A stretch of DNA of 64,000 nucleotides, taken from the NCBI RefSeq assembly GCF_056746865.1, contig NZ_CM163382.1. One strand, written 5' to 3'. Shown here in pieces: positions 39,747-62,829 of this stretch. Below the pieces are notes generated by a model. It ran no database searches, was not told where the DNA came from, and was given only the letters and a program-made list of their open reading frames with translations. A program made the position numbers and the translations under genes. Every line of letters starts with the position of its first letter. Position 1 is the stretch's first letter.

Positions 39747-39960
39747 ACCTGCACTCCAATTATTGACCAGTTCCTCACCGCGCCTCCCTCTCCGGCGGCG
39801 CGAATGAACATCTTATTGGCTATCACATCCGACACAAATGTTGCCATCCCATTGCTTAATCGAATAAAAATCAGGCTACATGGGTGCTAAATCTTTAACG
39901 ATAACGCCATTGAGGCTGGTCATGGCGCTCATAAATCTGGTATACTTACCATTACACATT

Positions 39961-40323
39961 GGGGCTGATTCTGGATTCGACGGGATTTGCGAAACCCAAG
40001 GTGCATGCCGAGGGGCGGTTGGCCTCGTAAAAAGCCGCAAAAAATAGTCGCAAACGACGAAAACTACGCTTTAGCAGCTTAATAACCTGCTTAGAGCCCT
40101 CTCTCCCTAGCCTCCGCTCTTAGGACGGGGATCAAGAGAGGTCAAACCCAAAAGAGATCGCGTGGAAGCCCTGCCTGGGGTTGAAGCGTTAAAACTTAAT
40201 CAGGCTAGTTTGTTAGTGGCGTGTCCGTCCGCAGCTGGCAAGCGAATGTAAAGACTGACTAAGCATGTAGTACCGAGGACGTAGGAATTTCGGACGCGGG
40301 TTCAACTCCCGCCAGCTCCACCA
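39961..40323 (+). ncRNA. ssrA: tmRNA (transfer-messenger RNA, 10Sa RNA)
   Basis: Starts GGGGCTGATTCTGGATTCGACGGG, contains tag-coding GCAAACGACGAAAACTACGCTTTAGCAGCTTAA and ends GGTTCAACTCCCGCCAGCTCCACCA; 363 nt. Confidence 0.97.
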
Positions 40324-40354
40324 AACATTCATTCATGATGCATCATGAACCTTA

Positions 40355-40390
40355 AAAAAGCCTGTAACTTCAACGAGTTGCAGGCTTTTT
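40355..40390 (+). terminator. ssrA intrinsic terminator
   Basis: aaaaaagcctgtaacttcaacgagttgcaggctttttt hairpin plus T-run. Confidence 0.75.
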
Positions 40391-40489
40391 TGTTGCATGT
40401 GTGGTCATGATCTCTGTATGAATCTTGACCTTTTGGCACCATGTTTAGCACCACGGTATCGTGGGGCTAAAAAAGCGTGGTGCTAAAAC

Positions 40490-41737
40490 ATGCCTAAGCA
40501 ACTGAAACCCTTAACAAATGTGGAGATCGCTGGCGCGAAGCCCCGTAGCACGGATTATGAGCTACGGGACGGTGAAGGCCTGTACTTGCTGGTTAAGACT
40601 TCAGGGAGGAAGGCCTGGCATTTCGAGTATTATCATCCCGTCACCAAAAAGCGCACCAAAACCAGCCTTGGCCCTTACCCGGTCGTTACACTGGCCATGG
40701 CTCGCGAAACTCGCACGAAATACAGACGACTGCTCTGGCAGGGCATCGATCCCCGTCAACACTTAGCAGGAATAGCCGAAGAAAAACGCCTCCAGAATGA
40801 ATGCACGCTGGAAAAAGTTGCGGAACAGTGGCTCAAAGAGAAGAAACGGACCAGCGACCTTAGCGAAGATCACGCCAAAGATGTCTGGCGCTCGCTGGAG
40901 ATGCACGTCTTCCCTTCTCTGGGCAGTACGCCCGTCACCGAGATCCGCCCGAAGATGCTCAAGGAACACCTCACCCCGCTGGAAGAACAGGGCATCCTCG
41001 AAACGCTGCGCCGGGTTATCTCACGGCTCAATGAAATCTTCCGCTTCGCCATCTCCGAAGAGCTTATCGAGTTTAACCCAGCAGACAACCTGGTCGCCCG
41101 CTTCAAGAAACCGAAAAAGCAGAACATGCCCGCCCTTCCCCCCAGCGAACTGGGCAGACTAATGTTGGCACTACAAAACGCCTCTATCCGCAAGGAAACA
41201 CGCTGCCTTATCGAATGGGAGCTACTGACCTGGGTTCGCCCCGGCGAAGCCGTTAGCGCCCGCTGGTGCGACATCGATATGAAAAAAGCGGAATGGCGTA
41301 TCCCTGACACCTTTATGAAGATGAACCGTTCACACACGGTGCCGCTCAGCAAACAGGCGCTGCGTGTTCTTCAGATCATGGAGCCCGTCAGCCGCCATCG
41401 TCCGTGGGTCTTCCCCAGCATCCGCAAACCGCTGGAGCACATGCACCAGCAGACCGCGAACGCCGCGCTTATCCGCATGGGGTTCGGCGGTGAGCTGGTC
41501 GCCCACGGCATGCGCAGCATCGCCAGAACGGCGGGCGCAGGTCATTTTCCCCGTGAAGTTCTGGAATCTGCACTGGCACACCAGAAAGAAGACGAGATCG
41601 AAGCGGCCTACAATCGCAGCGACTATCTGGAACAAAGGCGACCGCTCATGCAGTGGTGGGGAAACTACGTTGATGCCGCCAGACGGCAGGCATTGCTCGG
41701 TGAAGAAGAACCGCTGCGGATCGTGGAAGGAGAATAA
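40490..41737 (+). CDS. P4-type tyrosine integrase
   Basis: 415-aa ORF; clear similarity to recalled CP4-57 IntA (MxxQxKPLTxxEIxxAKP...NRSDYLEQRRPMMQWW), with HGMRSIAR and YNRSDY catalytic-region motifs. Confidence 0.92.
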   Translation: MPKQLKPLTNVEIAGAKPRSTDYELRDGEGLYLLVKTSGRKAWHFEYYHPVTKKRTKTSLGPYPVVTLAMARETRTKYRRLLWQGIDPRQHLAGIAEEKRLQNECTLEKVAEQWLKEKKRTSDLSEDHAKDVWRSLEMHVFPSLGSTPVTEIRPKMLKEHLTPLEEQGILETLRRVISRLNEIFRFAISEELIEFNPADNLVARFKKPKKQNMPALPPSELGRLMLALQNASIRKETRCLIEWELLTWVRPGEAVSARWCDIDMKKAEWRIPDTFMKMNRSHTVPLSKQALRVLQIMEPVSRHRPWVFPSIRKPLEHMHQQTANAALIRMGFGGELVAHGMRSIARTAGAGHFPREVLESALAHQKEDEIEAAYNRSDYLEQRRPLMQWWGNYVDAARRQALLGEEEPLRIVEGE

Positions 41738-41738
41738 T

Positions 41739-42383
41739 GTGACCAGTCCCATTCGTCAGAATCTGTTTGAACGGGAATGCGATATGCCGCTGCTGGAAGC
41801 GCGGCATCTCGCCCTTCTGCTTCTCGGCCTTGATGCTTCCCAACCTGCAAACGCCCTGCCGGAAGAACATCAGGAAAATTACCGTATCCTGCACGACGCC
41901 ATCAGTCGCACCATCAAAGCAACGGGCATGGTCAGCGCCCCGGCGAACAAACGCATGTTCTATGCCGATGAAATGTTCGCGCTGGCCTGGCGGCTTATTG
42001 ATGACGAACTCACGCCGCCAGAAATTAAGGCCCGGAGCCTGAAGGCAGTGATGAAACTGTCACGCAACAGCCGTGGCCGCAAGTGGCTGAAGACGCTCGG
42101 CGACGATGCGCTGCCGGATCTCACTGCTTCCACACAACCTTCCCTGCGTGGGATGCATAAGCGCGACAAAGCACGGGAGAATACTGCCAGGCTCTGCTGG
42201 TTACTGGTTCAGCTTCTGGTTGATGAGACTGACGGACGGTATGGCACGTCTGATAAACCGGCTTCGGATCGGATACTTCGGAAGCTGAAGGAGCTGGCGC
42301 AGGAGCGGGAATTACCGTCAGACGGGCTTGGGCGAGGGACGTTTTATGAGGTTTTGAAGATGGGAAGGGAGAAGGAAGTTTAG
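41739..42383 (+). CDS. hypothetical island protein (about 214 aa)
   Basis: In-frame GTG one codon after the integrase stop with GGAAGGAG 7 nt upstream; the longer ORF 41364..42383 overlaps the integrase and is trimmed. Confidence 0.5.
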   Translation: MTSPIRQNLFERECDMPLLEARHLALLLLGLDASQPANALPEEHQENYRILHDAISRTIKATGMVSAPANKRMFYADEMFALAWRLIDDELTPPEIKARSLKAVMKLSRNSRGRKWLKTLGDDALPDLTASTQPSLRGMHKRDKARENTARLCWLLVQLLVDETDGRYGTSDKPASDRILRKLKELAQERELPSDGLGRGTFYEVLKMGREKEV

Positions 42384-42732
42384 GTAATAACACTGCAGAT
42401 CGCACGTGAACACAGTGCCACTTTCCCTATGGAATGTGAAATTAATCGGTAATACCCCTCGAAAGAATGTGAACAGACACTCTCTTGCTTAACTGTTGAA
42501 ACTCTTCGAATTAAAGACAAGGTTCGCCATTTAATTATCTGACAGTTCGCCCCAGCACAACGTTAAAGTGATTTTTGATCAATCACCTACTCTGCTCTGG
42601 CAGAGCCAGAGCCGTTTTACTGACTAAAGCACAAGCTTCCAGCGAATGCACCTTTCCACACACCATAAGTCTTGTGTGATACCAGCACTGACGGTGTATG
42701 TTACATATCCTTAAAAAGTTCTCCAGACCGAC

Positions 42733-43905
42733 TTAGAGAACCTTAGACTGTTCTGGGAACCAGTTATTAATTATATGTCTTCGACAGACTTTAGATATTT
42801 CAAATACCTGTCGTGACACTAATGCACCATCAGGATGGCGCTGGTCAGGTATGTCATTTTCTATGTCATAAAAATTATGCGTTATTTCTGGGGGAAAGAA
42901 AACGTTTTTGTCTAAAGGCACGCTTGCATAGGGATTATAATACACATGCAAACCATCAAAATGAGTTTCCTTGTAGTCCCTTGTTCGGCACATTACAATA
43001 TCCGCGCCAACAACCTCATTGTTGTAGAATTGTCGCTTCGTAGTAACATAATGGTCAGGACCAAGTTTTCTCGTATGAGAACCTTCGTTCTTCATACCTT
43101 CATTGGCAATAAAAACATTCACATCAAGAGCTCGGAATCTCGTATATCGGACATATCGATCGACCCGACTCTGAACGATAGCCTTACCAAAAGTACCTGT
43201 CGTTGAAAACACGATAGCACTGATTTCTTTGTATGAGTCATTTGTAAAAATACCTAAAGGTATTTCAGTGTCTTCATTTTTTTTAATCGATAAAACCCTT
43301 CTTTGCCTACCATTTACTAAATCTCTCATCGTAGGTTCTTCAATGCCAAACAATACCCGGTTAATGATTGTATTATTCTGGGTTAAAGATAGATCTGAAT
43401 CAAATGGGGCCAATGCTAACACAAAAGGCTTACCGATTACATGTTCCATTGTTGAGTATGGGAACTTCTTACCATTAATTCCGGTAAAGAGATCGCGCTT
43501 ATCTTTAATTTTCCCAAGAAGTTTTAGCGTAGATTGATGCTTAAACTTAGCTTCACTGAAAATTTCACTGACTGGCGGTTTATGGGGCTTGTCAGAGACC
43601 ATAGCCTCTACGTTAAATTTATAACCTAATGGCGTGCTAACACAAAAATCAGGACTGTCTTTTGTATAGTCAACCGAATACCCCAAACGAATAAACATCT
43701 CATTTAGATATAATTCCCACATAGAAGAATTAAAGGTAGTCTGAAATTCGTTAATAAATTTAGTTTGTTCACCACTGCGTTCCAGTAATCCGCGTCCCCA
43801 TGATTGGATCACCGCCCTAACAGGAGCAAGTTTAGGATCTGTGTAGATTGTTTTAAAATTGTGATTTAGTTTATTTCTAGCTATTTTTGTTGAGAAGAGA
43901 TCCAT
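42733..43905 (-). CDS. hypothetical 390-aa protein, opposite strand, AT-rich
   Basis: Long uninterrupted ORF with good RBS (agaggtaaataATG); no family recognised. Confidence 0.7.
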   Translation of the reverse strand: MDLFSTKIARNKLNHNFKTIYTDPKLAPVRAVIQSWGRGLLERSGEQTKFINEFQTTFNSSMWELYLNEMFIRLGYSVDYTKDSPDFCVSTPLGYKFNVEAMVSDKPHKPPVSEIFSEAKFKHQSTLKLLGKIKDKRDLFTGINGKKFPYSTMEHVIGKPFVLALAPFDSDLSLTQNNTIINRVLFGIEEPTMRDLVNGRQRRVLSIKKNEDTEIPLGIFTNDSYKEISAIVFSTTGTFGKAIVQSRVDRYVRYTRFRALDVNVFIANEGMKNEGSHTRKLGPDHYVTTKRQFYNNEVVGADIVMCRTRDYKETHFDGLHVYYNPYASVPLDKNVFFPPEITHNFYDIENDIPDQRHPDGALVSRQVFEISKVCRRHIINNWFPEQSKVL

Positions 43906-44356
43906 TATTTACCTCTATAAACACTTTGTAAAACTAAACATGTGTATTTTACTGCGCTGATTGTCGAACATATGCTTCAAATTGTAATGCGGTATTCTAC
44001 ATCAGAAAAACCTCTTTTATATTTTCCTCATTAAATTTATTTACACCGAAAAATAGCCGCATGAATCATGTCTGAACAGATGAACTTCTCTAATATAGCC
44101 TAAATACCTACGACTGCGCTATAAAGAGGGAACCTCAAGCACTAATAGCACAAAGAAAATATGCGAACACAAATTTGACGCGAAACTATGACTTAGATAG
44201 GATGAATCTAGGTGGTGATGGTCACCTGGCGCCTGTCTCGCAAAGCAATAGCCCATCGTTCAGAAGTATACCAAATACTTGGCCGCCATCCATTATGACG
44301 CTGCCCGGTTAGCAGGCTATCGGTATCCAAAGCGTTACTTTATTGGAGGTACAGCC

Positions 44357-44896
44357 ATGTCTGACTATTCATACCTAAGCATTCTTAAAACGTGCGCTAA
44401 AAAGCTGGCTCGCATTCAGAAAATTAAGCTTTCCAAAGCACTCGAAATCGTTGCCCGTGACGCGAAATTCACCAGCTACCATGAGCTGTCCGAAGTCGCA
44501 AAACGTGCCCCGCTAGAACAACGGCTGGTTTTCGCTGCAATAGGCGAAGATACTCAAGAGGATGTGATTTATCGCGATGAGATTTTTTATGCCATAGACC
44601 GCGAGGTGGAAGATATGCTCTCCGGCGACATAGCGGAAACAAACGCCTATGGTTTTAGCATAGAGAATCTGGAGGCAACAAGCATAAATTACGACCCAAA
44701 GCGAGGCATTCTGGTCGTCCAAGTCATATTTGATTATCAGGGTGAACAAGATTCTGAACGCCCTTTCTCTGGTTCGTCCTTTGAAATTGTTGCGAAAATG
44801 GAGCTACTTCTTCGCGACAATGTATGGAGCCTCGTAGAAAATAGTCTGGAATTGACCTCTGTTAATTCAAATGTCGATAATGACTGGTACGATTAA
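44357..44896 (+). CDS. hypothetical acidic 179-aa protein
   Basis: ATG at 44357 preceded by GGAGG; ORF 44279..44896 trimmed. Confidence 0.6.
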   Translation: MSDYSYLSILKTCAKKLARIQKIKLSKALEIVARDAKFTSYHELSEVAKRAPLEQRLVFAAIGEDTQEDVIYRDEIFYAIDREVEDMLSGDIAETNAYGFSIENLEATSINYDPKRGILVVQVIFDYQGEQDSERPFSGSSFEIVAKMELLLRDNVWSLVENSLELTSVNSNVDNDWYD

Positions 44897-45497
44897 GACA
44901 TATAACAGTAGGAGGCATTCCAAATTTTTGGCGGAGTGCCTTTTTAGTAACTATATCCAGATGAAATCATCGAGTTATCACATGAGCATCCATCTTACGT
45001 GTACTCAAAACACTTATGGGCTTCTAAATTCAGGAAGTCCCTACTCCGCTTGCTGGCGCTTCTTTGAGCCTCGTGGCGTCCATATACACCAATTAGGCCA
45101 GACCATGCTCAAACAACTTGTCGAGAAATGCTATGTGCAAAAACCACTGGACATGTTCTCGATGACAGCAGGCAAACTAACTGGGCTTGATCAATCTGGG
45201 CCTAAACTGGCTTCCATCATATGCAGAGGGATAGAGCAGGCCAAAGATGTACAACTCGGAGAGTTACTTTTTGCCTGCGGTATCTATGGTGTGGAAGAAG
45301 AAGAAGCCTGGTTACTAGCTAAAAGATTCAGTAATCTTGAGGCCTTGTATGGTGCCAGCATAGATTCTCTGATGAGTTATAACCTTCTTAATGAGGCAGT
45401 AGCTGTCAATACGTATAACTTCTTCCGTCATCCGCTCAATGTGTCGGCTCTTAACGAGTTACAAACAGAAGGTGGATTGAAGGTGCGCCATGGATAG
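44871..45497 (+). CDS. protein with NAD-dependent DNA ligase-like C-terminal helix-hairpin-helix region (start uncertain; possible remnant)
   Basis: C-terminal ~100 aa (GPKLASIICRGIEQAKDVQLGELLFACGIYGV...LEALYGASIDSLMSYNLLNEAVAVNTYNFFRHPLNVSALNELQTEGGLKV) aligns by eye to the LigA HhH region; alternative starts TTG 44928 (AGGAGG upstream) or ATG 44961. Confidence 0.5.
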   Translation: MSIMTGTIKTYNSRRHSKFLAECLFSNYIQMKSSSYHMSIHLTCTQNTYGLLNSGSPYSACWRFFEPRGVHIHQLGQTMLKQLVEKCYVQKPLDMFSMTAGKLTGLDQSGPKLASIICRGIEQAKDVQLGELLFACGIYGVEEEEAWLLAKRFSNLEALYGASIDSLMSYNLLNEAVAVNTYNFFRHPLNVSALNELQTEGGLKVRHG

Positions 45498-45682
45498 AAT
45501 TAACACCAAGGCTGTGCCCGGCCTTTTATCTATGCAACGTAGCCGATGACAGTTAACGGTGAGACAGCAACACCTGTTGTAACATGTTTGTACTCGTGCA
45601 TTGCCATCCGTAGGCCTAAACATATCTGACTCCCACAGGATGGGGATAAAATACAACATTTGCATTTTCAATTTGTTATCGA

Positions 45683-45732
45683 AAAATCATTAGTCCTGAT
45701 GGGAAATAATATCTTCCCGGACTAATGATTTT
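45683..45732. promoter_or_regulatory. 50-bp region with perfect 14-bp inverted repeat upstream of alpA (operator or terminator)
   Basis: aaaatcattagtcc (45683-45696) and ggactaatgatttt (45719-45732) are exact reverse complements; followed by repeated tatccgg motifs. Confidence 0.45.
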
Positions 45733-45831
45733 CTATCCGGACTCCACTTTTTTATCCGGGCCTATACCTCCCCTCATCGTTCCGCGCTATAACCGCTCCG
45801 ACACTCTGTTCCCGTCCCGTGAGGTGCAATC

Positions 45832-46047
45832 ATGAAAACCAGTGCAGACAGTAACGATGCTTTTCCCGAAAGCGGCAACGTGCGTATGCGGCAGGTAGTC
45901 CAGTTTCTGGCGATGAGTGAATCGTCGGTTTACCGCCTGATTAAAAACACCGACTTTCCCCGCCCCGTCCACCTCTCTTCCCGACTGGTGGTCTTCGATG
46001 CTGCTGAAATCCGTCAGTGGCAACAGCGCCGCGCCGCCATCCGTTAA
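45832..46047 (+). CDS. alpA: AlpA-family phage transcriptional regulator (HTH)
   Basis: 71-aa ORF with RMRQVVQFLAMSESSVYRLIKNTDFPRPV helix-turn-helix typical of AlpA. Confidence 0.85.
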   Translation: MKTSADSNDAFPESGNVRMRQVVQFLAMSESSVYRLIKNTDFPRPVHLSSRLVVFDAAEIRQWQQRRAAIR

Positions 46048-46082
46048 TCCACGCTCAGGGATGAGCCGACTGATACCCCGTC

Positions 46083-48152
46083 ATGAAACGCGCCCCTTTT
46101 CTCTGTAAGCAGTCTCCGGACCGCACGCTCGAAGTGGTGATCCTTGCCGGAAGCCTGGCATGGGAGACCTCACACGTGTGGCGAAAAGATCCCGACCGGG
46201 AAGATGATGTTCCCCCGATGGTACTCGGCCCGGATGAACTGGCCGATCTGAGCAATCTGACCATTATCAGGCCCGACACGCTCTACGTCCGGGTACTTCG
46301 CACCGGCGATATCAGTGAAGAAGAGCTGCTGAAAATTGCCGTAAAACTGGCGCACGCGGGCGTGCAGATGGCCCGGCTGATGACCCCTGACGGTGAGTTA
46401 CTGGAGAACTGGACCGGACAGCTTGAACGCCTGCGACAGGAAAGACCTTCTGACATCCTGCCGGATCACTTCCGCCTCGATGAAGAAGCACTGTGGTTTG
46501 ATAAGCTCACCGAACGGCGCGACGGTGAAAGCGATGTCCAGCCCCAGCGCATCTGTTCCCCTCTGCGCGTCACTGCCATCACCTGCGACAGCCATGACGG
46601 CAGCTATGGCCGCCTGCTGGAATGGCACACCACCACCGGGCAATTGCGGCGCTGGGCCATGCCGATGGCGATGCTCAGCGGCAACGGCGAGGAGCTGAGG
46701 CGCATTCTGCTGGAGAACGGCCTGACCTATATCTCCACCCGCCCTGCCCTGCGCAGTCTGCTGTGCGAATATATCTCGCGGTCACTCCCCGGACGCCGGG
46801 TCACCTGCGCGGAGAAAACCGGCTGGCACAACGGCGTGTACGTGCTGCCGGATGAGGTTATCGGTCCCGATGGCGACAACGTCATTCTCCAGGGCAGCCA
46901 CTACCTGACTGGCGGCTTTGCACAATCCGGTACGCTGGCAGAGTGGCAGGAGCAGGTCGCCGCGCTCTGTGCAGGCAATTCACGGCTGGTCTTTGCCGTC
47001 TGCTGTGCGCTGGCCGCCCCGCTGCTGCGCCTGACAGGAACGGGCGGCGGAGGCTTTCATCTGCGCGGTGAGTCCACTGACGGTAAGACCACGGTGATGA
47101 AAGTGGCCGCTTCCGTCTGTGGCGGGACGGATTACTGGCACTCCTGGCGGGCCACCGGGAATGCGCTGGAAGGAATTGCCAGCCGCCACAACGATGCCCT
47201 GCTGCCACTTGATGAACTGCGCGAAGTGGACCCGCGTGAGGCCGGGATGATTGCCTATATGCTGGCGAACGGACAGGGCAAGGGGCGCGCCCGCACCGAT
47301 GGCGAAGTGCGTAACCGCAGGCACTGGACGCTGCTGCTGTTCTCCACCGGGGAGCTGTCGCTGGCGGAACACACCGAATGCGCCGGGGAGCGCCTCTACG
47401 CCGGGATGGACGTGCGCATGGTACAAATCCCCAGCGACACCGGGCAGCATGGTTCGTTTGAGCAGTTGCACGGGTTTGCCAGCGGCCAGCAGTTCGCCGA
47501 TACTCTCTGCGACCGGGTGGCCCGCTTCCACGGCACCGCCTTTCGTGCCTGGCTGGCCTTCCTCACCAGCGACCTGGACGCCAGCACCACGCTGGCGAGA
47601 GAGTTACTTCGCCGCTACCAGACCGCCCTGATGCCGGACAACGCCGGAAACCAGGTGCAGCGCATCGTGGCCCGTTTTGCCCTGCTGGCGGTGGCCGGGG
47701 AGATAGCGACACTGAACGGTATCACGGGCTGGCAGGAAGGCTCGGCGTATGGGGCGGTGCAGATCTGCCTTCACGCCTGGCTGAACGAGCGCGGCCATAT
47801 TGCCAACCAGGAAGATGAAGGCGTGCTGGCGCAGATCAAGCGGTTCATTACCGCGCACCAGTACAGCCGCTTTGCCTCGTGGGATGGCCCGGACCGCCCG
47901 CTGAATATGGCAGGCTTTCGCCGGGTGGAAAAAGATCCGCTGACGGGCGAGGAACACACGCTGTTCTTCATCCTGCCTGAGGGCTGGCGGGAAATATGCC
48001 GGGGATTCAGTCCTGCCAGAGCGGCCAGATTATGCCAGGAAGCGGAATGCCTGCTGCCCGGCAGCGACGGGAAATACCAGTCGCAGGTTCGCCTGCCGGA
48101 GATCGGCAAAGCCAGAGTCTACCGCCTCACCTCCCGCATCCTCAGTATCTGA
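46083..48152 (+). CDS. P4 alpha-like primase/helicase-type replication protein (P-loop NTPase C-terminal half)
   Basis: 689-aa ORF, Walker A GESTDGKTTV, position after alpA as in P4-like and PICI elements; GC-rich unlike the cargo. Confidence 0.75.
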   Translation: MKRAPFLCKQSPDRTLEVVILAGSLAWETSHVWRKDPDREDDVPPMVLGPDELADLSNLTIIRPDTLYVRVLRTGDISEEELLKIAVKLAHAGVQMARLMTPDGELLENWTGQLERLRQERPSDILPDHFRLDEEALWFDKLTERRDGESDVQPQRICSPLRVTAITCDSHDGSYGRLLEWHTTTGQLRRWAMPMAMLSGNGEELRRILLENGLTYISTRPALRSLLCEYISRSLPGRRVTCAEKTGWHNGVYVLPDEVIGPDGDNVILQGSHYLTGGFAQSGTLAEWQEQVAALCAGNSRLVFAVCCALAAPLLRLTGTGGGGFHLRGESTDGKTTVMKVAASVCGGTDYWHSWRATGNALEGIASRHNDALLPLDELREVDPREAGMIAYMLANGQGKGRARTDGEVRNRRHWTLLLFSTGELSLAEHTECAGERLYAGMDVRMVQIPSDTGQHGSFEQLHGFASGQQFADTLCDRVARFHGTAFRAWLAFLTSDLDASTTLARELLRRYQTALMPDNAGNQVQRIVARFALLAVAGEIATLNGITGWQEGSAYGAVQICLHAWLNERGHIANQEDEGVLAQIKRFITAHQYSRFASWDGPDRPLNMAGFRRVEKDPLTGEEHTLFFILPEGWREICRGFSPARAARLCQEAECLLPGSDGKYQSQVRLPEIGKARVYRLTSRILSI

Positions 48153-48171
48153 GTGCCATCTCGCGTGTCTT

Positions 48172-48382
48172 AAAAAAAGGTGGTACAGGGTGGGACAAGT
48201 GGTACACGCAGAGCTGGCGCGGGTTTCAGCGTCCCACTTTAGATAATTTGGTTTAAAAAAAGTGGTACAGAGTGGGACAGCCGTTGCTGAATCTGTCCCA
48301 CTTTTCTGACTGGTATTTTTCAGGTGGTACAGCGCAAAGCCACGGCTGGCGCGGTTGTACCACTTGTCCCACCTGTACCACC
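48172..48382. repeat. iteron-like direct and inverted repeats (putative replication origin / cis replication region)
   Basis: ggtggtacagggtgggacaagtggtacac, gtggtacagagtgggaca, ggtggtacagcgc and the inverted copy ggttgtaccacttgtcccacctgtaccacc read directly, immediately 3' of the primase gene. Confidence 0.6.
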
Positions 48383-48824
48383 TTAAAAACAGAAGAAATG
48401 AAAATGGCGAAAAGGGACTGCAAAAGCAAAGGCTGAAAGGAAGAGAGAATAAGGGGAACGGACTTACTCTTAAATGGATAACCTATATTTTTATATTCGT
48501 ACCATTTACATGATGGAGTGCAAAGTTACCATTCAACATGATTTGGATTAGATAGCAAAATTCTCTATAGAATGTTTTCTAGATTTCAGAGGGATTTAAC
48601 GATAGCTTATCTCACAAATCACAAATCGGTCAAAAAATATACAGAAAACCAAGTTTTGCCCAGAAATCCTTTTAAAATTTTTGAGTTAAAAATCATTGTG
48701 TTGTATTAATTTCAGGACGCCACATGTCAAATATCGACACCCAATATAGTGTATAAAAACACAGGAGGACTCATTGTGATTTATATAATAAAATAACCTT
48801 ATACATCTTTCTGGAAACCAAGTA

Positions 48825-49811
48825 ATGGTTAAAATTCACATTTTAGATGCCGGACATGGTGATTGCTTGTTAGTAGACTGCGATGGTGTCAAATTGTTAA
48901 TTGACGCTGGCCCAAGTACATTTAGGTATAGAAAAAAAATTTCAGCCAAGTTAGCTGAACTTCTGAATGGCGAGTCTGTTGATATCGCTTTTGTAACTCA
49001 CAATGATGATGACCATATCGGTGGTTTCAAATACCTAATTGAAAATAAAATAAACATCAAGAGATTTGTATTCAATAGTTTATCTAACATTAAACATGTA
49101 ATAAAGAATTCAAGCAATAAAATATCGACCAAACAAGATATAAATCTTGATAGAATAGTGAAAGATGGAAGTTTTGTCTTTTCGACACTAACTTCAGATG
49201 ACTCTCCTATTTTAATCAGAAATATAAAAATAACACCTATTACTCCTTCAAAAAATATCCTTTTAAAATATTTAGAACAACAAGAGCGTAAAAACACAGA
49301 AATTAAAATATCATCTTCATCTGAAAAATATAGTATTAAAGAAGCACTGCAGTTGCTAAGCAATGGAAATGATATGTTTGTAAAGGATCCATCGGCAACT
49401 AATAAAACCAGTTTATCATTTATGATTGAGTATGGGAATTTTTGTGGATTATTCCTTGGTGATGCACACGAAGAAGACATCTACTCATATATGGCTAATC
49501 ATTGTGCCAATAGAAAAATATCATTTAACGTTGTTAAGTTAGCACATCATGGTAGTGAAAAAAACACGAGTTCACGGTTATTGAAGTTAATTGGTACAAC
49601 AGAATATATCATATGTGCGAATAAAACCAAGCATAATCATCCAAATAATTTAACTCTTGCAAGAATTTTAATACATGAACAAGAACCTAAAATTCATATG
49701 AGTAGCAGCAATCAGGAGATAATAAATTTACTCAATCAAATAAATTTATTAGGCTTCGGCATTACTGCAACCCATTCTGAAAATGGAGTTAATACTTTAA
49801 TCTATGAGTAG
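48825..49811 (+). CDS. metallo-beta-lactamase-fold protein, ComEC-like (putative nuclease/hydrolase)
   Basis: 328-aa ORF: ILDAGHGDCLLVDCDGVKLLIDAG start, THNDDDHIGG metal-binding-like motif, AHHGSEKNTS motif; very AT-rich. Confidence 0.7.
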   Translation: MVKIHILDAGHGDCLLVDCDGVKLLIDAGPSTFRYRKKISAKLAELLNGESVDIAFVTHNDDDHIGGFKYLIENKINIKRFVFNSLSNIKHVIKNSSNKISTKQDINLDRIVKDGSFVFSTLTSDDSPILIRNIKITPITPSKNILLKYLEQQERKNTEIKISSSSEKYSIKEALQLLSNGNDMFVKDPSATNKTSLSFMIEYGNFCGLFLGDAHEEDIYSYMANHCANRKISFNVVKLAHHGSEKNTSSRLLKLIGTTEYIICANKTKHNHPNNLTLARILIHEQEPKIHMSSSNQEIINLLNQINLLGFGITATHSENGVNTLIYE

Positions 49812-51269
49812 AAAAAATGCTGTAAAAATAAAAGTCAATGATTCGGAATCAAGTGGCTATTTTTTCAAAGCAAGCTCCAAGGATGATTCTTTTGTAATTT
49901 CATCCAAGCACGGCCTTTGTTCTAGACAGTCAGATTGTGAAGAATTTCTTGATAATGTTCAGAATTGTTGCCGTTTATGCACTCAAGATTTAAATATTGA
50001 CAATATATCTTTTGAAATTGAAGGAAATAAGAAGCTAAAGCCAATAAGTTATTTCAGTCTTGAAAACAAAGATATTGTCATCACCAAAGTGGATGGGGTA
50101 TCTAATTATCCTTTAAGGATAGGAAAGATAGAAAAAGAAAAGTATTATACTTATGGTTACAAGAGTAAATGTGATAAGCCTGGCAGAATTTTATTAAATG
50201 AGCCAGATTTATTAGATGGGATTTGTTATTTCAATATATGTTCCGATGCAACACCTGAGTTGATTGAGAAAAGTGAAGAATATTATGGAATTTCAGGTTC
50301 ATTAGTTTTTGATTCTCCAGAAAAAGATGTTTTAACCGCACATGCAGTAATAACAACTAATGAAACCAATAATGACTTAGGTTCAGAAATATTACATGAT
50401 ATTGATTTCAAAGAAATTAATAACTTTTTCGGCTGTGAAGTATTCTTGGGTAAAAAACTCCAATTTCAACTAGATGATACTTTTAGTAAAAATTTTTCAA
50501 AGATTGGAGAAGTGCTTGTTAGCGACAAACTCCAAATTGAAATATTTATTTCATCTTATAAAGGTATACCATATTTTAATTTGACACCAATTGCTGATGC
50601 ATTAATTCAAAGTAAGTTTTATTATGTTTTTGGAAATGTTAGTAGAAGTGATCATATAAATATAATCGCTGCATCAAACATTATACTCAACAAATCTCAT
50701 TTAGAACCAGCTAATAAATTATTAACTAGCAAATTAACTGAATCGATATTATCAGCACCTCATATTTATTCCACTAGCATTGATGATAATAATTATCATC
50801 ATATTCATTTTAAACAAATGACTTCTGGTGATATTGAGCTCATAATATCATGTTATGGTGGAGGAGATGATCTTCCTAAAGATATAAATGGCACTTTAAC
50901 TGAGTTGTTACACAATATAAATACTTATAACTTAAATAAAAATTCAATAATTGAGAGGTCTTTTCTTAATCAAAAATTTACAGATGCACAATGCGAAATT
51001 TTATATGAGATTTTTTTGAGCGATTAACTGATTCAATCGACAGAATTTCATTATTGCATGTAATTCCTTTGGACCATTATTTAATAAAAGATAAATCAGA
51101 AATTAAAAATGAAATTATTACCATTGTTGAGAAAGCGTGTCAAGAATTAGACAGCAACATTTTAGATTATCTTGAGCATGGAATATCTATAAATCTATTA
51201 ATATTTCCAACTAATAATAAAGATGAATTATCAGGGTTAATGCAAAGGTTGATAAATAATTATGAATGA
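49804..51269 (+). CDS. protein with trypsin-like serine protease-type motifs; reading frame interrupted at a T7 run (ORFs 49804..51027 and 51054..51269 probably one gene)
   Basis: Start overlaps the MBL gene stop by 8 nt (ATGAGTAG); motifs SSKHGLC, NKDIVITKV, GISGSLVF; frame 1 stops at 51027 while frame 0 stays open from the T7 run (51011-51017) to 51269 and has no ATG or RBS of its own. Confidence 0.6.
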
Positions 51270-60467: not shown

Positions 60468-61306
60468 GCGTCCTCCTGACAGAGCGGGAATAAATCATCC
60501 TCATACTGGAGCATCCCCATGATTTCCCGGACATAGTTATCGACATGCCCCAGAAAGTGAAAACGTTCCGGTGCGGCGCGATAGCGTTGATAAAGCGGCG
60601 TATCGAAGGTGATGCCAAGATGCGGGTTCCCTTTGACGGTGGCGAATTTGATGCGCGGAATATGCGGGTAGTAATGATTCTTGCGCACGCAGAGCTGCCC
60701 GTTCTCTTCCACGATGTAGCAGGCCATACCGTGATAAAACTGCACCGTGTCGTAGTGAACCGCGCAGGGTTTATAGGCCAGATTGCTGAACACCAGCGGC
60801 CCGTCGCCAATATTGATGGAGCAGTGGCCGTAATTCGGCGGCACGATAATGCTTTCCCCCTCCTTCACCACCGCCACGATAAGATCGTCCACCAGCAGAT
60901 CTTTTGGCGCGACTGCAAAATCCGGCGACTTTTGCAGGATATATGCCGCAGTCCCCTTAATCACTTCATATAATTCCGGATGGGTGTTGCGCCGCGTGTC
61001 GTTATAGCCGTGATAATGACCGCTGGTTTTCTTGCGCTCCCTACCAATCGTTCCCGACATGATGATGGTGATGTCGTACTGATACTGGTCGGCAGCAAGC
61101 CGTTCCTGATCCTCCGCAAAACTGAGCCCGCGATAAACATCGTAAGCCGGTTCATCACGCTGCGCTTCGGTGAACTCCGGTAAGACCACCGCCATCTGCC
61201 CGGCGCTTTTGCGGCCAAAGCCGAGATAGTTCAGCGGGGGTTTCAGCACCATCACGCCGTCGTCATCGAGATACAGCGGTAAGCCGCTGTGGTGTAGCTG
61301 TTTCAT
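60464..61306 (-). CDS. cupin-type sugar-phosphate isomerase (cupin phosphoglucose isomerase-like)
   Basis: 280-aa ORF with TSGHYH, ELYEV and PPNYGHCSIN motifs. Confidence 0.6.
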   Translation of the reverse strand: MKQLHHSGLPLYLDDDGVMVLKPPLNYLGFGRKSAGQMAVVLPEFTEAQRDEPAYDVYRGLSFAEDQERLAADQYQYDITIIMSGTIGRERKKTSGHYHGYNDTRRNTHPELYEVIKGTAAYILQKSPDFAVAPKDLLVDDLIVAVVKEGESIIVPPNYGHCSINIGDGPLVFSNLAYKPCAVHYDTVQFYHGMACYIVEENGQLCVRKNHYYPHIPRIKFATVKGNPHLGITFDTPLYQRYRAAPERFHFLGHVDNYVREIMGMLQYEDDLFPLCQEDA

Positions 61307-62829
61307 TTTGCCTCCTGTGTATACGCGTTAGCTGCGCGGATCGCCTCTTTCAGCCGATCGGATTTCATGCCAAAGACGCTTTGAATGTTGTTCCCGACCT
61401 CGACGACACCCGCCGCACCAAGCTGTTTCAGCAGCGCTTTGTCCACCAGCGACTTATCCGTCACGTCAATGCGCAGACGCGACATGCAGGCTTCGATGCG
61501 GGTCATATTCCCCAGCCCGCCATAGGCCAGAATGATGCCGCTCACCAGGTCGTTCTGTTCGTTTTCCTGCGCCACAGTGCTTTCTTCGACTTCACACCCC
61601 GGCGTCAGCAAATTCCAGCGGCGGATGGCAAAGGTAAACAGGGCGTAGTACACCGCTCCCATCACCAGCCCGACCGGGAACACCATGTACCAGTGAGGCG
61701 CGCGCGGCAGGACGCCAAAGAACAAATAGTCGATAAGCCCGCCGGAGAAAGAGAGCCCGATGTGCACGCTGAACCACTCCATCAGCAGGAACACCAGCCC
61801 CGCCAGGACGGCGTGAATGCCATATAGCACGGGCGCAACAAACAGGAAGGAGAACTCAATCGGCTCGGTGATGCCGCAGACGATGGAGGTGATCGCGCCA
61901 GAGAGCATAATGCCCTTCACCCGCGCTTTGTTTTCCGGGCTGGCGCAGCGGTAGATCGCCACCGCAATCGCCGGAATGCAGAACATCTTGATCGGCGTCA
62001 GCCCGGCCATAAAGGTTCCGGCGGTAATCGGCACCTGATCTTTCAACTGGGCAAAGAAGATAAGCTGGTCGCCATGCACCACCTGCCCGGCTTTGTTCAC
62101 GTACTCGCCAAACTGCAGCCAGAACGTCGGCCACCAGACATGGTTAAGACCAAACGGAATCAGCAGCCGCTCGACAAAACCGAACAGGAAGGCGGACACG
62201 CCCGGCCCCTGCACCGTCATAGTATTCGACAGGCCATTAATCAGATGCTGAACCGGCGGCCAGACCACCGTCATCACCAGCCCGACAAACAGCGCGGCGA
62301 AGGAGGTCACTATCGGCACAAATCGCTTGCCGGAGAAGAACTCCAGCCATGAAGGAAGCTGGATGCGGTAATAGCGTTTATACAGCCAGGCGGCGATAAT
62401 CCCGATAATGATGCCGCCAAACACGCCGGTCTGGAGCGAAGGGATGCCCAGCACCATCGTGTAGTCACGTACCTGCGCCACCGACTCGGGCGTGATCCCC
62501 AGAAACTGGCCGATGGTGACGTTCATAATCAGAAAACCGGCGATCGCCGACAACCCGGCAATCCCCTGATCGTCACTCAGTCCTACCGCCACGCCGACCG
62601 CAAACAGCAGCGGCAGGTTAGCGAAAATCGCACTGCCCGCTTCAGCCATCAGCTTCAGCACGTGAACCAGCCAGTCAGCGCCGAGAAACGGCAGGCTGGC
62701 GACAATATTGGGATCCTGAAAGCTGACGCCGAAGGCCAGCAAAATACCGGCGGCAGGCAGCATGGCAATGGGGATCATTAACGATCGCCCGATGCTTTGT
62801 AACATTTGCAGAAGGTTGAATCTTTTCAT
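61303..62829 (-). CDS. PTS glucose-family EIICB permease
   Basis: 508-aa ORF: polytopic EIIC part and C-terminal EIIB with GNMTRIEACMSRLR cysteine motif. Confidence 0.85.
   Translation of the reverse strand: MKRFNLLQMLQSIGRSLMIPIAMLPAAGILLAFGVSFQDPNIVASLPFLGADWLVHVLKLMAEAGSAIFANLPLLFAVGVAVGLSDDQGIAGLSAIAGFLIMNVTIGQFLGITPESVAQVRDYTMVLGIPSLQTGVFGGIIIGIIAAWLYKRYYRIQLPSWLEFFSGKRFVPIVTSFAALFVGLVMTVVWPPVQHLINGLSNTMTVQGPGVSAFLFGFVERLLIPFGLNHVWWPTFWLQFGEYVNKAGQVVHGDQLIFFAQLKDQVPITAGTFMAGLTPIKMFCIPAIAVAIYRCASPENKARVKGIMLSGAITSIVCGITEPIEFSFLFVAPVLYGIHAVLAGLVFLLMEWFSVHIGLSFSGGLIDYLFFGVLPRAPHWYMVFPVGLVMGAVYYALFTFAIRRWNLLTPGCEVEESTVAQENEQNDLVSGIILAYGGLGNMTRIEACMSRLRIDVTDKSLVDKALLKQLGAAGVVEVGNNIQSVFGMKSDRLKEAIRAANAYTQEAK

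What the first reader, a model, noticed from the sequence alone, without database searches (positions are those of the whole stretch)
40324..48400. P4-like / PICI-like integrative element at the tmRNA hotspot with cargo different from K-12 CP4-57
The backbone is collinear with K-12 up to ssrA. The integrase resembles CP4-57 IntA and an AlpA regulator is present, but the intervening and following genes (390-aa orphan on the opposite strand, ligase-HhH-like ORF, P4 alpha-like primase, iterons, defence-like operon) are not the K-12 CP4-57 set as I recall it. The int - alpA - primase - ori arrangement is that of satellite phages or phage-inducible chromosomal islands, and no capsid-remodelling genes are seen in the window. 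I looked by eye for a direct repeat of the ssrA 3' end (attR) downstream and did not find one, so the island end is probably beyond 64000.
Basis: partly seen in the sequence, partly recalled or inferred. Interest (0 to 1): 0.6.

Follow-up and report, generated by a model that had tools for sequence, protein, structure and literature searches.

The report
Mobile defence island beside the tmRNA gene
This is the left 8 kb of a 31-kb horizontally acquired island inserted at the end of the tmRNA gene, which combines a satellite-phage-type integration and replication module with sugar-use genes and several swappable anti-phage systems; it is a good example of a known kind of element, not a new kind.

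Summary
Immediately after ssrA (39961-40323) lie a P4-family integrase, a conserved 214-aa gene, a variable segment, AlpA, a DUF927 replication helicase and a cluster of ten iterons.
- The "390-aa orphan" is the validated defence gene PD-T7-5.
- The "P4 alpha-like primase" has no detectable primase domain and no similarity to P4 alpha. It is 59% identical to the helicase part of a TOPRIM-DUF927 primase of a P4-like satellite, and is related to SaPI Rep and SCCmec Cch.
- The "defence-like operon" is a Hachiman-trypsin-MBL system broken here by two frameshifts.

The island is about 31.2 kb and ends about 7.5 kb beyond the window, at the junction where K-12 has the CP4-57 attR. That site keeps only CGCCAGC+CA of the ssrA end.

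Relatives in Citrobacter, Raoultella, Enterobacter and Salmonella share the backbone but carry different defence systems in four slots. An Enterobacter copy is 97.8% identical, against 78.8% for the flanking core, so transfer was recent. In E. coli the island occurs in about 2.4% of complete genomes, as one near-identical copy.

It fails the membership tests for P4-like satellites and for bona fide PICIs: no hijacking or packaging genes, no cos site, and twice the usual size. It is a new member of a known kind, of moderate interest.

The parts
39961..40323 (+). ssrA (tmRNA gene). Its last 15 nt (40309-40323, CCGCCAGCTCCACCA) form the attL core; the predicted overlap region is CCACCA (40318-40323).
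   Evidence: ARAGORN; Rfam 292.8 bits. In IMG/VR locus L012, homology to the island starts at 40309 behind a pseudo-ssrA.
40324..40489 (+). Left arm of the island: non-coding, begins AACATTCATTCATGATGC.
   Evidence: The same left end follows ssrA or pseudo-ssrA copies in L005, L012 and L013.
40490..41737 (+). P4-family tyrosine integrase.
   Evidence: 48% identical to K-12 IntA; 33% to P4 Int; NCBIfam NF007246, 459 bits against a cutoff of 434.
41739..42383 (+). orf214, a conserved backbone gene of unknown function directly after int.
   Evidence: No Pfam domain; phrog_30524. Conserved at 84-93% nt identity in the Citrobacter and Raoultella relatives. 23% identical (E 3e-15) to the gene at the same position in a P4-like satellite.
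42385..45586 (.). Variable slot 1, a defence hotspot. Here it holds PD-T7-5, orf179 and an HhH protein.
   Evidence: Replaced by Hachiman in C. sedlakii, Gabija in C. youngae, a 1022-aa protein in Raoultella and an AAA + TIR pair in C. freundii.
42733..43905 (-).
   Evidence: PADLOC PDLC04110, 2.4e-137. Vassallo 2022 Table S2 gives the same ORF length, from strain UMB0934.
44357..44896 (+). orf179, hypothetical, part of the slot 1 cargo.
   Evidence: phrog_28020, 3.9e-48, unknown function.
45135..45497 (+). Stand-alone LigA-type helix-hairpin-helix domain protein, part of the slot 1 cargo.
   Evidence: NCBIfam LigA positions 455-565, 4e-15; PGAP name.
45587..45831 (+). Conserved alpA upstream region. 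It holds a perfect 14-nt inverted repeat (45683-45696 / 45719-45732) and three ATCCGGRC-like repeats (about 45716-45760). Putative operator/promoter.
   Evidence: Repeats. Conservation with the relatives starts at 45587-45717. Function is inferred.
45832..46047 (+). AlpA-family regulator / excision activator.
   Evidence: Pfam Phage_AlpA, 2.9e-23; 23% identical to K-12 AlpA.
46083..48152 (+). Rep, a DUF927 initiator-helicase. Residues 1-125 form a rare, weakly TOPRIM-like domain; DUF927 spans 130-413; Walker A is GESTDGKT and Walker B is LLPLDE. No primase domain was detected.
   Evidence: Pfam. PDB 8tch 'Pathogenicity island protein' 5.5e-17 and 5dgk 'Active helicase' 1.3e-12. 59% identical to the helicase part of a satellite TOPRIM-DUF927 protein. 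No similarity to P4 alpha. N-terminal domain.
48179..48382 (.). Replication origin: ten RGTGGKACA iterons (three direct at the left, three inverted at the right, four between them), flanked by A-runs.
   Evidence: Invariant in three species. It is the only iteron cluster in the island.
48477..54794 (.). Variable slot 2. Here it holds a Hachiman-trypsin-MBL operon plus an HTH regulator.
   Evidence: Homology to the Citrobacter relatives stops at 48474-48481 and resumes at 54519-54795. The slot is nearly empty in C. freundii.
48825..49811 (+). MBL-fold nuclease proenzyme of Hachiman-trypsin-MBL.
   Evidence: PADLOC LmuA 2.9e-61, RTasMBL 1.3e-48, Avs1a 2.4e-35. The operon is conserved in Aeromonas and Vibrio. 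Mechanism: bioRxiv 10.1101/2025.09.03.673762.
49804..51269 (+). Trypsin-HamA gene, split by a -1 frameshift at a T7 run (about 51005-51011). The intact allele encodes 488 aa.
   Evidence: The intact T8 allele is found in strain 2021CK-01784 and in E. hormaechei. One homologue is named DUF1837 by its source.
51262..53786 (+). HamB helicase gene, split by a -1 frameshift at an A7 run (about 52442-52448). The intact allele encodes 841 aa.
   Evidence: The two halves match HamB profile positions 4-400 and 413-842. Frames. Intact A8 allele. At least 129 of 131 E. coli copies match the window's split (A7) sequence at >=99% over 211 nt; all 38 rows displayed at 100% carry it.
53941..54420 (-). HTH (cI/RstR/CapH-like) regulator.
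   Evidence: phrog_8 and phrog_4; NCBIfam RstR 3.5e-10; PADLOC capH 2.6e-5.
54781..57674 (+). Conserved backbone: glucitol/sorbitol-type PTS IIC, IIA and IIB plus a Gfo/Idh/MocA oxidoreductase.
   Evidence: PGAP names. 91-92% nt identity in the Citrobacter relatives.
57968..59170 (+). Variable slot 3 cargo: PD-T4-1 (DUF3883), a single-gene anti-phage system.
   Evidence: PADLOC PDLC04021, 1.3e-204. Same ORF length and same source strain as in Vassallo 2022 Table S2. The segment differs in C. sedlakii and C. freundii.
59242..62829 (-). Conserved backbone: hxlA, hxlB, a glucose-6-phosphate isomerase family gene and a PtsG-like PTS IIBC.
   Evidence: PGAP names. 94.7% nt identity in C. sedlakii.
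63052..64000 (+). SgrR-family regulator gene, cut by the window end. Beyond the window the island continues with an IS3 remnant, a DHFR-family gene, slot 4 with a second PD-T7-5 paralogue, a 200-aa recombinase fragment, a ~300-bp conserved right arm and attR at about window-equivalent 71495.
   Evidence: L001 annotation.

Best explanation
Window 40324-48400 is the integration, regulation and replication module of a ~31.2-kb mosaic genomic island inserted at the 3' end of ssrA.

**Architecture (shown).**
- Conserved backbone blocks: [attL - P4-family int - orf214], [alpA - DUF927 Rep - iteron ori], [srl-like PTS + oxidoreductase], [hxlAB - pgi-like - ptsG-like - sgrR-like] and [300-bp right arm - attR].
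- Four variable slots lie between these blocks. In different hosts they hold different anti-phage systems.
- In this E. coli the slots hold PD-T7-5, a Hachiman-trypsin-MBL operon (pseudogenised by two frameshifts), PD-T4-1 and a second PD-T7-5 paralogue.

**Likely life cycle (inferred by homology to CP4-57, P4-like satellites, Gram-negative PICIs and SaPIs).**
1. AlpA switches on int and the rep operon.
2. Int recombines attL and attR across the CCACCA overlap at the tmRNA 3' end.
3. The circle is replicated by Rep, a self-loading SaPI-Rep/Cch-type helicase that binds the GGTGGKACA iterons just downstream of its own gene. Priming would be by the host, because no primase domain is present.
4. 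Transfer needs outside help, most plausibly a phage with a capsid of at least 31 kb, because the island encodes no packaging, capsid-redirecting or conjugation functions.

**History.** The island moved between Escherichia and Enterobacter recently. In the E. coli lineage sampled here it looks clonal and probably locked in, because attR has lost 4 nt of the overlap region.
For: **Boundaries.**
- Left.
- Right: K-12 homology resumes at L001 43596, exactly at psaA.
- The same terminus, AATTACAAGGACGCCAGC, occurs in Raoultella and in 28 metagenome contigs with at least 6 different downstream flanks.
- Tandem arrays occur in both orders with P4/CP4-57-like elements, so the island is an independent integrative unit.

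**Backbone versus slots.** blastn blocks. Slot contents.

**Horizontal transfer.** E. hormaechei is 97.8% identical over 18.2 kb of island, against 78.8% over 3.8 kb of upstream core. The Rep cluster at 90% identity spans E. coli, Salmonella, Enterobacter and Citrobacter.

**Module homology.**

**Origin.**. Literature on the position and form of the PICI ori: PMC6092414 and PMC10111431.

**Clonality in E. coli.** 126-132 of 5426 genomes, all >=99% identical, one copy each, contiguous with ssrA.

**Defence genes.**. Hachiman-trypsin-MBL.
Against: - No excised or circular form was seen: the predicted attP junction is absent from IMG/VR and from all fetched loci.
- attR shares only 9 nt with ssrA in this lineage.
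- No helper phage, pac/cos site or packaging gene was identified.
- Within E. coli there is no sign of movement.
- The functions of AlpA, Int, Rep and the iterons are inferred from homologues and were not tested.
- Identity of the window genes with the cloned PD-T7-5 and PD-T4-1 is inferred from source strain, ORF length and HMM score, not from direct sequence comparison.
Confidence: 0.68

Rival explanations
1. It is a bona fide phage satellite (a P4-like element or PICI) that a specific helper phage induces, packages and transfers at high frequency. The 23 kb to the right of ori is simply accessory cargo.
For: - The int-alpA-replicase-ori order and orientation match Gram-negative PICIs (PMC10111431, PMC6092414).
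- Four genes are homologous, in the same order, to a P4-like satellite that has psu, delta and a sid-like gene.
- A Rep homologue sits in the experimentally shown satellite phiAH14b (PMC4936722).
- Defence cargo in fixed hotspots is typical of satellites.
- The inter-genus transfer is recent.
Against: - No psu, delta, sid, epsilon, icd or DUF5375, and no cos site.
- No CI RNA.
- No terS, capsid or rpp-type gene in PGAP or PHROG annotation.
- Size is 31.2 kb, against about 10-15 kb.
- SatelliteFinder treats int+alpA+primase-only sets ('Type C PICI') as unreliable (PMC10085698).
- No attP junction in viral contigs.
Confidence: 0.2
2. It is a decayed composite. A small P4/PICI-like element lost its right half, and the remainder between ori and ypjA is an unrelated accumulation of older insertions at the ssrA hotspot. 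The 31 kb would then not be one unit.
For: - G+C is extremely mosaic, from 27-30% to 65%.
- There is an IS3 remnant and a 200-aa recombinase fragment near the right end.
- Defence genes are frameshifted.
- attR is degenerate.
- The Raoultella copy has a large internal deletion.
Against: - The same block order, from ssrA through the hxl cluster, is kept in C. sedlakii and C. freundii. In E. hormaechei it runs through the sgrR and DHFR-family genes.
- The same ~300-bp right arm and terminus recur next to many different flanks.
- The E. hormaechei copy is 97.8% identical along 18 kb without a break, variable slots included.
Confidence: 0.1
3. It is an integrative mobilizable element that moves by conjugation, exploiting a co-resident conjugative plasmid or ICE.
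For: Hochhauser et al. list IMEs among the occupants of the tmRNA hotspot #9 (PMC10121019). Helicases of this family (PDB 5dgk; NCBIfam SCCmec Cch1) also occur in non-phage elements.
Against: PGAP, PHROG and Pfam annotation of the island shows no relaxase, coupling protein or other mobilisation gene. The closest replicase relatives are in satellites.
Confidence: 0.04

Closest known systems
CP4-57 cryptic prophage of E. coli K-12 (intA, alpA, yfjI ...)
   Same: - Same insertion site and same chromosomal junctions: the ssrA 3' end on the left and the psaA position before ypjA on the right.
- Integrase 48% identical.
- AlpA-family regulator.
- Both carry a Hachiman-type helicase system: AbpB hits the HamB halves.
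   Different: - No other gene is shared.
- The replicase is DUF927 rather than DUF3987 (YfjI).
- Different cargo.
- The two elements occur in tandem in other genomes, so they are distinct elements competing for one site.
P4-like satellites, especially the subfamily with a TOPRIM-DUF927 primase (example: E. coli TUM2805 pMTY2805_untypable_1, locus L063)
   Same: Int, the orf214-like gene, alpA and the replicase are homologous and in the same order. GGTGGNACA iterons lie directly downstream of the replicase. A defence hotspot is present.
   Different: - The island lacks psu, delta, sid-like, icd and DUF5375 genes, a cos site and the CI RNA.
- Its replicase has lost TOPRIM.
- There is one iteron cluster, not P4's ori plus crr.
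- It is 31 kb against about 11 kb, and carries metabolic operons.
Gram-negative PICIs such as EcCICFT073
   Same: Unidirectional int-alpA-pri/rep. The ori, made of two iteron sets, lies just after the replicase. No phage structural or lysis genes. Accessory defence genes are present (PMC6092414, PMC10111431).
   Different: - No packaging or interference module.
- About twice the usual size.
- ssrA is not a PICI-exclusive site.
- Induction by a helper is untested.
- In SatelliteFinder terms it would score only as a 'Type C' PICI (PMC10085698).
tmRNA-integrated defence islands I23/I44/I55 of Pseudomonas, transduced by a jumbo phage (PMC12595487)
   Same: They sit immediately downstream of tmRNA and carry a tyrosine integrase, AlpA and defence systems. 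They have no autonomous transfer genes, are tens of kb long, and occur in tandem with other islands.
   Different: AlpA is at the far end in those islands. Their core genes differ (YqaJ, RadC, Gp2-like). They have clean 14-bp direct repeats. No sequence relationship was tested here.
SaPI Rep and SCCmec Cch self-loading helicases
   Same: DUF927/AAA+ core with Walker A and B motifs. The best matches to solved structures are 8tch (5.5e-17) and 5dgk (1.3e-12). The origin with iterons lies next to the gene.
   Different: About 25% identity only. The island protein has a different N-terminal domain and a longer C-terminal region.

Membership tests
P4-like satellite (SatelliteFinder core: int, alpA, alpha, epsilon, psu, delta, sid; plus cos) | P4-family integrase | tested here: met
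   33% identical to P4 Int over 413 aa; NF007246 above its cutoff.
P4-like satellite (SatelliteFinder core: int, alpA, alpha, epsilon, psu, delta, sid; plus cos) | AlpA/Vis-type regulator | tested here: met
   Pfam Phage_AlpA, 2.9e-23.
P4-like satellite (SatelliteFinder core: int, alpA, alpha, epsilon, psu, delta, sid; plus cos) | alpha-type primase-helicase | tested here: inconclusive
   No similarity to P4 alpha (E 0.39) and no primase domain. It is, however, 59% identical to the helicase part of the TOPRIM-DUF927 primase of a P4-like satellite.
P4-like satellite (SatelliteFinder core: int, alpA, alpha, epsilon, psu, delta, sid; plus cos) | psu, delta, sid and epsilon (helper exploitation and capsid size) | tested here: not met
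   tblastn of the P4 proteins and the L063 satellite proteins against the whole island: no hits at E <= 0.01.
P4-like satellite (SatelliteFinder core: int, alpA, alpha, epsilon, psu, delta, sid; plus cos) | P2/P4 cos site and CI immunity RNA | tested here: not met
   No cos match within 2 mismatches and no blastn similarity to P4. Rfam finds only tmRNA in 39800-64000.
Phage-inducible chromosomal island (Gram-negative PICI) | int, alpA and pri/rep in one orientation, with an iteron ori downstream of the replicase | tested here: met
   Gene order and strands. Iterons at 48179-48382.
Phage-inducible chromosomal island (Gram-negative PICI) | Absence of phage structural and lysis genes | tested here: met
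   PGAP annotation of the whole island and PHROG scans show none.
Phage-inducible chromosomal island (Gram-negative PICI) | Size around 10-15 kb (about one third of the helper genome) | tested here: not met
   31.2 kb from the attL core (40309) to attR (about 71495).
Phage-inducible chromosomal island (Gram-negative PICI) | Packaging or interference module (terS, rpp, capsid or cpm genes, or the helper's cos/pac) | tested here: not met
   None annotated or detected.
Phage-inducible chromosomal island (Gram-negative PICI) | Helper-phage-dependent excision, replication and packaging | not testable with these tools
   Needs experiments. The only indirect check was negative: no attP junction in IMG/VR.
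tRNA/tmRNA-integrating genomic island (integrase-bounded, horizontally acquired) | Integrase gene next to the 3' end of a tRNA/tmRNA gene, with the gene end regenerated at attL | tested here: met
tRNA/tmRNA-integrating genomic island (integrase-bounded, horizontally acquired) | Direct repeat of the target 3' end at the far boundary | tested here: inconclusive
   In this lineage only CGCCAGC+CA remains. Relatives keep CGCCAGCCCACCA (L052, L056) or intermediate lengths.
tRNA/tmRNA-integrating genomic island (integrase-bounded, horizontally acquired) | Patchy distribution and evidence of horizontal transfer | tested here: met
   132 of 5426 E. coli genomes. 97.8% island identity against 78.8% flank identity with E. 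hormaechei.
DUF927 / SaPI-Rep / Cch replicative helicase | DUF927 domain with an intact P-loop NTPase | tested here: met
   PF06048, 1.9e-106, full length of the model. Walker A GESTDGKT and Walker B LLPLDE are read from the sequence.
   The gene order is conserved in Aeromonas, Vibrio, E. hormaechei and one E. coli strain. In the window both trypsin-HamA and HamB carry -1 frameshifts.

The most novel reading that the evidence does not exclude
The island represents an unnamed family of large (~30 kb), self-replicating ssrA islands of Enterobacteriaceae. On this reading:
- The family derives from P4-like satellites, has shed every helper-hijacking gene and its own primase, and still moves between genera, perhaps packaged whole by full-size capsids or by lateral transduction.
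- It serves as a four-slot exchange platform for defence systems, tied to sugar-PTS metabolism.
- The length series at attR (CCACCA, CACCA, ACCA, CCA, CA, A, none, all starting at the predicted top-strand cleavage site) records repeated integrase-made 'locking' deletions that domesticate the island.
Probability: 0.2. Interest if true: 0.6.

Novelty: new member of a known kind. Interest (0 to 1): 0.37.

Why it matters
- The island shows how anti-phage systems travel. One conserved chassis at the tmRNA gene carries PD-T7-5, Hachiman-trypsin-MBL and PD-T4-1 in E. coli. The same slots hold Gabija, classical Hachiman, a TIR-domain gene next to an AAA ATPase, a Shedu-type (SduA_C) protein and other candidate genes in other genera.
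- It probably supplies the genomic context for two experimentally validated systems, both cloned from strain UMB0934.
- It is a tractable case for asking how 'integrase-only' defence islands, which have a replicon but no packaging genes, move. That mode of mobilisation was left undetermined in E. coli pan-genome surveys.
- Practically, the lineage-specific frameshifts and the damaged attR predict that this E. coli lineage has an inactive Hachiman system and a trapped island. Both predictions are easy to test.

Tried and rejected
- **ssrA repeat search.** I searched for a 15-25-nt repeat of the ssrA 3' end across the whole ssrA-ypjA interval, with up to 3 mismatches and with word-7 blastn. The only hit was an inverted 16/18 chance match inside the sgrR-like gene. 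The right end was instead found by comparison with K-12 and Raoultella.
- **An internal attR right after ori**, which would have made the 8-kb module a separate small element: none found.
- **cos sites.** No P2/P4 cos. The lambda cosN near-matches were judged to be chance.
- **P4 alpha homology:** rejected.
- **P4 CI RNA and other RNA families:** none.
- **PADLOC, Pfam and NCBIfam on the 407/488-aa protein:** no hit. It was resolved through homologues, operon context and the literature.
- **Arm-type repeats shared by the left and right arms:** nothing convincing.
- **Promoter and terminator scan:** counts no higher than in shuffled sequence.
- **Predicted attP junction:** absent from IMG/VR and from all fetched loci.
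- **Right end in E. hormaechei.** I tried to reach it by walking along exact protein look-ups. The walk stopped in slot 4.
- **Williams 2003, 'Traffic at the tmRNA gene':** not held in the library.

Full report
**1.

ARAGORN and Rfam place the tmRNA gene at 39961-40323. The window from 39900 to 64000 is identical to E. coli strain 2017C-4173W12 (locus L001; window coordinate = L001 coordinate + 27899). Downstream of ssrA, on the plus strand unless stated, lie:

| Coordinates | Feature | Evidence |
|---|---|---|
| 40490-41737 | Integrase, 48% identical to K-12 IntA and 33% to P4 Int | |
| 41739-42383 | orf214, no known domain | |
| 42733-43905 (minus) | 390-aa gene | |
| 44357-44896 | 179-aa hypothetical gene | |
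| 45135-45497 | Stand-alone LigA-type helix-hairpin-helix protein | |
| 45832-46047 | AlpA, Pfam Phage_AlpA 2.9e-23 | |
| 46083-48152 | 689-aa DUF927 protein | |
| 48179-48382 | Ten copies of RGTGGKACA | |

The iteron motif occurs once elsewhere in the 64 kb, and 1.08 copies are expected by chance.

**2. Corrections to the gene calls**

- The 390-aa "orphan" matches the PADLOC model for PD-T7-5 at 2.4e-137.
- The DUF3883 gene at 57968-59170 matches PD-T4-1 at 1.3e-204.
- Table S2 of Vassallo et al. 2022 (PMC9519451) shows that both systems were cloned from one strain, UMB0934, with ORF lengths equal to those here. This island is therefore probably their source. I did not compare the sequences directly.

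The "P4 alpha-like primase" needs the largest correction.
- It has no similarity to P4 alpha (E 0.39).
- Its only Pfam domain is DUF927, at residues 130-413.
- Its best solved relatives are 8tch, deposited as "Pathogenicity island protein" (5.5e-17), and 5dgk, deposited as "Active helicase" (1.3e-12). NCBIfam also gives a weak hit to the SCCmec Cch1 replicative helicase.
- Its closest non-identical relative is an 890-aa "TOPRIM and DUF927" protein, 59% identical over residues 126-686.
- In the window protein the TOPRIM part is replaced by a rare 125-residue domain. That domain has 45 representatives among 1.84 billion proteins and is always N-terminal.
- The conserved columns of the domain alignment do not include the acidic TOPRIM motifs.

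I conclude that the protein is an initiator-helicase without a demonstrable primase.

**3. Relationship to satellites**

The 890-aa relative sits in a typical P4-like satellite. Its gene order is int, a 212-aa gene, alpA, icd-like, DUF5375, primase, sid-like, psu, delta and then a retron.
- Four of those genes have homologues in the island, in the same order: int 34%, the 212-aa gene against orf214 23% (E 3e-15), alpA 29%, and the replicase 59%.
- That satellite's origin, directly after its primase gene, uses GGTGGAACA repeats. The island uses GGTGG(T/G)ACA, and P4 itself uses GGTGAACA.
- A further homologue lies in phiAH14b, an experimentally shown satellite (PMC4936722).
- The layout also matches the published description of Gram-negative PICIs: int, alpA and pri in one direction, with the ori made of two iteron sets just after pri (PMC10111431, PMC6092414).

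The island nevertheless lacks everything that makes those elements satellites.
- No psu, delta, sid, epsilon, icd or DUF5375 homologue.
- No P2/P4 cos site.
- No CI RNA.
- No terS, capsid or other structural gene.
- Only one iteron cluster.

In SatelliteFinder terms it would be a "Type C PICI" (integrase, AlpA and primase only). The authors of that tool regard this class as unreliable (PMC10085698).

**4. Boundaries**

No 15-25-nt copy of the ssrA end exists anywhere between ssrA and ypjA. I therefore located the right end by comparison.
- Homology to K-12 stops 7 nt after ssrA. It resumes at L001 43596 (window-equivalent 71495), exactly at psaA, the pseudo-ssrA attR of CP4-57.
- The sequence there is ..AATTACAAGGACGCCAGCCAATCATGATTGG. 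K-12 has ..CCGCCAGCCCACCAATCATGATTGG.
- Raoultella carries the same terminus..AATTACAAGGACGCCAGCC. There it is followed by the left end of a CP4-57-like element.
- An IMG/VR contig shows the converse arrangement: P4-type crr repeats, then a pseudo-ssrA, then this island's left end.

The island is thus an independent unit of about 31.2 kb that shares its site with CP4-57-like elements.

**5. State of attR**

A metagenome scan for the terminal 21-mer returned 28 contigs.
- After CGCCAGC they carry CCACCA, CACCA, ACCA, CCA, CA, A or nothing, followed by at least six different flanks. Three contigs do not fit the series.
- This fits an attP of the form ..GGACGCCAGC | CCACCA | AACATTC.., with CCACCA as the overlap region.
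- On that model the window's lineage (CA) has lost four of the six overlap bases, which should impair excision.
- The anchoring of the series on the left is partly an artefact, because my search pattern ended in CGCCAGC. Runs of C also make some of the deletions ambiguous.

I record the series as unexplained, with aberrant integrase cleavage and rejoining as a hypothesis.

**6. Architecture from relatives**

blastn against Citrobacter sedlakii, C. youngae, C. freundii, Raoultella, Enterobacter hormaechei and the metagenome contigs gives the following conserved blocks, in window coordinates.

| Conserved block | Content |
|---|---|
| 39914-42384 | ssrA, int, orf214 |
| ~45590-48480 | alpA, rep, ori |
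| ~54520-57674 | srl-like PTS and an oxidoreductase |
| 59239-~65700 | hxlA, hxlB, pgi-like, ptsG-like, sgrR-like, DHFR-family |
| 71190-71500 | right arm |

Four variable slots lie between the blocks. Some of their contents are recognised defence systems and some are uncharacterised.

| Slot | This E. coli | Other hosts |
|---|---|---|
| 1 | PD-T7-5 (plus orf179 and the HhH protein) | Hachiman (C. sedlakii); Gabija (C. youngae); AAA + TIR (C. freundii); 1022-aa protein (Raoultella) |
| 2 | Hachiman-trypsin-MBL plus an HTH regulator | nearly empty (C. freundii) |
| 3 | PD-T4-1 | NERD/kinase/helicase giant protein (C. freundii) |
| 4 | Second PD-T7-5 paralogue | Shedu-like SduA_C (read set ERR3985895); 829-aa protein (E. 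hormaechei) |

The ori is 96% identical among three species, and every iteron is invariant.

**7. Mobility**

The E. hormaechei copy carries the same cargo. It is 97.8% identical over a continuous 18.2 kb, while the adjacent core (recN to smpB) is 78.8% identical. This shows recent transfer of the island between genera, and it refutes the idea that the region is core genome.

Within E. coli the picture is different.
- 132 of 5426 complete genomes hold the left module, 130 hold at least 80% of the 24 kb in the window, and 126 hold the right end.
- All copies are at least 99% identical, single-copy and next to ssrA.
- I read this as one acquisition followed by vertical inheritance.
- No attP junction was found in IMG/VR or in any fetched locus.

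**8. The "defence-like operon"**

The genes at 48825-53786 are an MBL-fold protein, a 407-aa ORF and two helicase halves that together cover a HamB profile.
- Strain 2021CK-01784 and E. hormaechei have an intact 488-aa middle gene and an 841-aa HamB.
- The window differs from them by single-base losses in a T8 run and an A8 run.
- At least 129 of 131 E. coli copies match the window's A7 sequence at >=99% over 211 nt; all 38 rows displayed at 100% carry the split form.
- The three-gene operon is conserved in Aeromonas and Vibrio.
- It corresponds to the Hachiman-trypsin-MBL system, whose mechanism was described in 2025 (bioRxiv 10.1101/2025.09.03.673762; PMC12799240).

Here it is most likely a pseudogene pair.

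**9. Verdict**

- The region is the P4/PICI-type integration, regulation and replication module of a 31-kb, recently mobile, multi-slot defence and metabolism island at tmRNA hotspot #9 of E. coli (PMC10121019).
- It is not a member of the P4-like or PICI families as currently defined.
- It resembles in kind the tmRNA islands with integrase, AlpA and defence cargo that lack autonomous transfer genes (PMC12595487).
- It is a new member of a known kind, and interest is moderate.
- The open points are how a 31-kb island with a replicon but no packaging genes is transferred, and what produces the attR length series.

Noticed in passing
window 51005-51011 and 52442-52448: Both trypsin-HamA and HamB of the Hachiman-trypsin-MBL operon are broken by single-base losses in homopolymer runs (T7, A7). 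At the A-run, at least 129 of 131 E. coli copies match the window's split sequence at >=99%. Strain 2021CK-01784 (T8, A8) and E. hormaechei have both genes intact.
   Followed up: yes
beyond the window: L001 43577-43610 (window-equivalent ~71476-71509); loci L035-L062: At the island's right end, the remnant of the ssrA terminus after CGCCAGC forms a length series (CCACCA, CACCA, ACCA, CCA, CA, A, none) across 28 metagenome contigs and several flank types. This may mark the integrase cleavage site. It is partly an ascertainment effect of the search pattern.
   Followed up: partly
beyond the window: L001 37945-38967 (window-equivalent 65844-66866): A second PD-T7-5-family gene (PADLOC 8.2e-102) sits in a fourth variable slot of the same island. 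In relatives this slot holds a Shedu-like SduA_C protein or an 829-aa protein.
   Followed up: partly
L020 and L021 (Salmonella enterica serovar Hartford): In Salmonella the alpA-rep-ori block (93.6% nt identity) lies directly after a P2/186-like prophage and directly before a DUF2971 gene and fljA-fljB-hin, the phase-2 flagellin switch. The flagellar phase-variation locus may therefore sit inside a relative of this island.
   Followed up: no
L002 6352-8541 (K-12 abpB/yfjK) against window 51664-52862: The AbpB helicase of CP4-57 is similar to the HamB halves here (34% over 121 aa). The two unrelated islands that compete for ssrA both carry Hachiman-type helicase defence systems.
   Followed up: no
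window 45683-45760: Upstream of alpA there is a perfect 14-nt inverted repeat (AAAATCATTAGTCC / GGACTAATGATTTT) and three ATCCGGRC-like direct repeats spaced about 18-20 nt apart. This is a candidate operator for AlpA or a repressor.
   Followed up: no
L005 1-3136 (Citrobacter sedlakii, upstream of ssrA): The 3.1 kb upstream of ssrA in C. sedlakii has no blastn similarity to E. coli's recN-bamE-ratA-smpB region, although smpB-ssrA linkage is normally conserved. I did not examine the reason.
   Followed up: no
window 40324-48800 in other E. coli genomes (hits H31-H34, H56, H67): Several island-positive genomes carry IS66, IS3, IS5 or IS1 insertions inside the left module, and one has lost 44% of it. 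This fits ongoing decay of the island in E. coli.
   Followed up: no
beyond the window: L001 40749-41351 and 36935-37098: A 200-aa tyrosine-recombinase fragment on the minus strand and an IS3 remnant lie in the right third of the island. They are possibly relics of earlier insertions.
   Followed up: no
plasmid collection hits H166, H169-H171: DUF927 Rep relatives occur on small circular records of 7-16 kb in Salmonella, Legionella and Klebsiella, and a 97% identical copy lies on a 272-kb Salmonella 'plasmid' record. Some of the small circles could be excised satellites deposited as plasmids.
   Followed up: no
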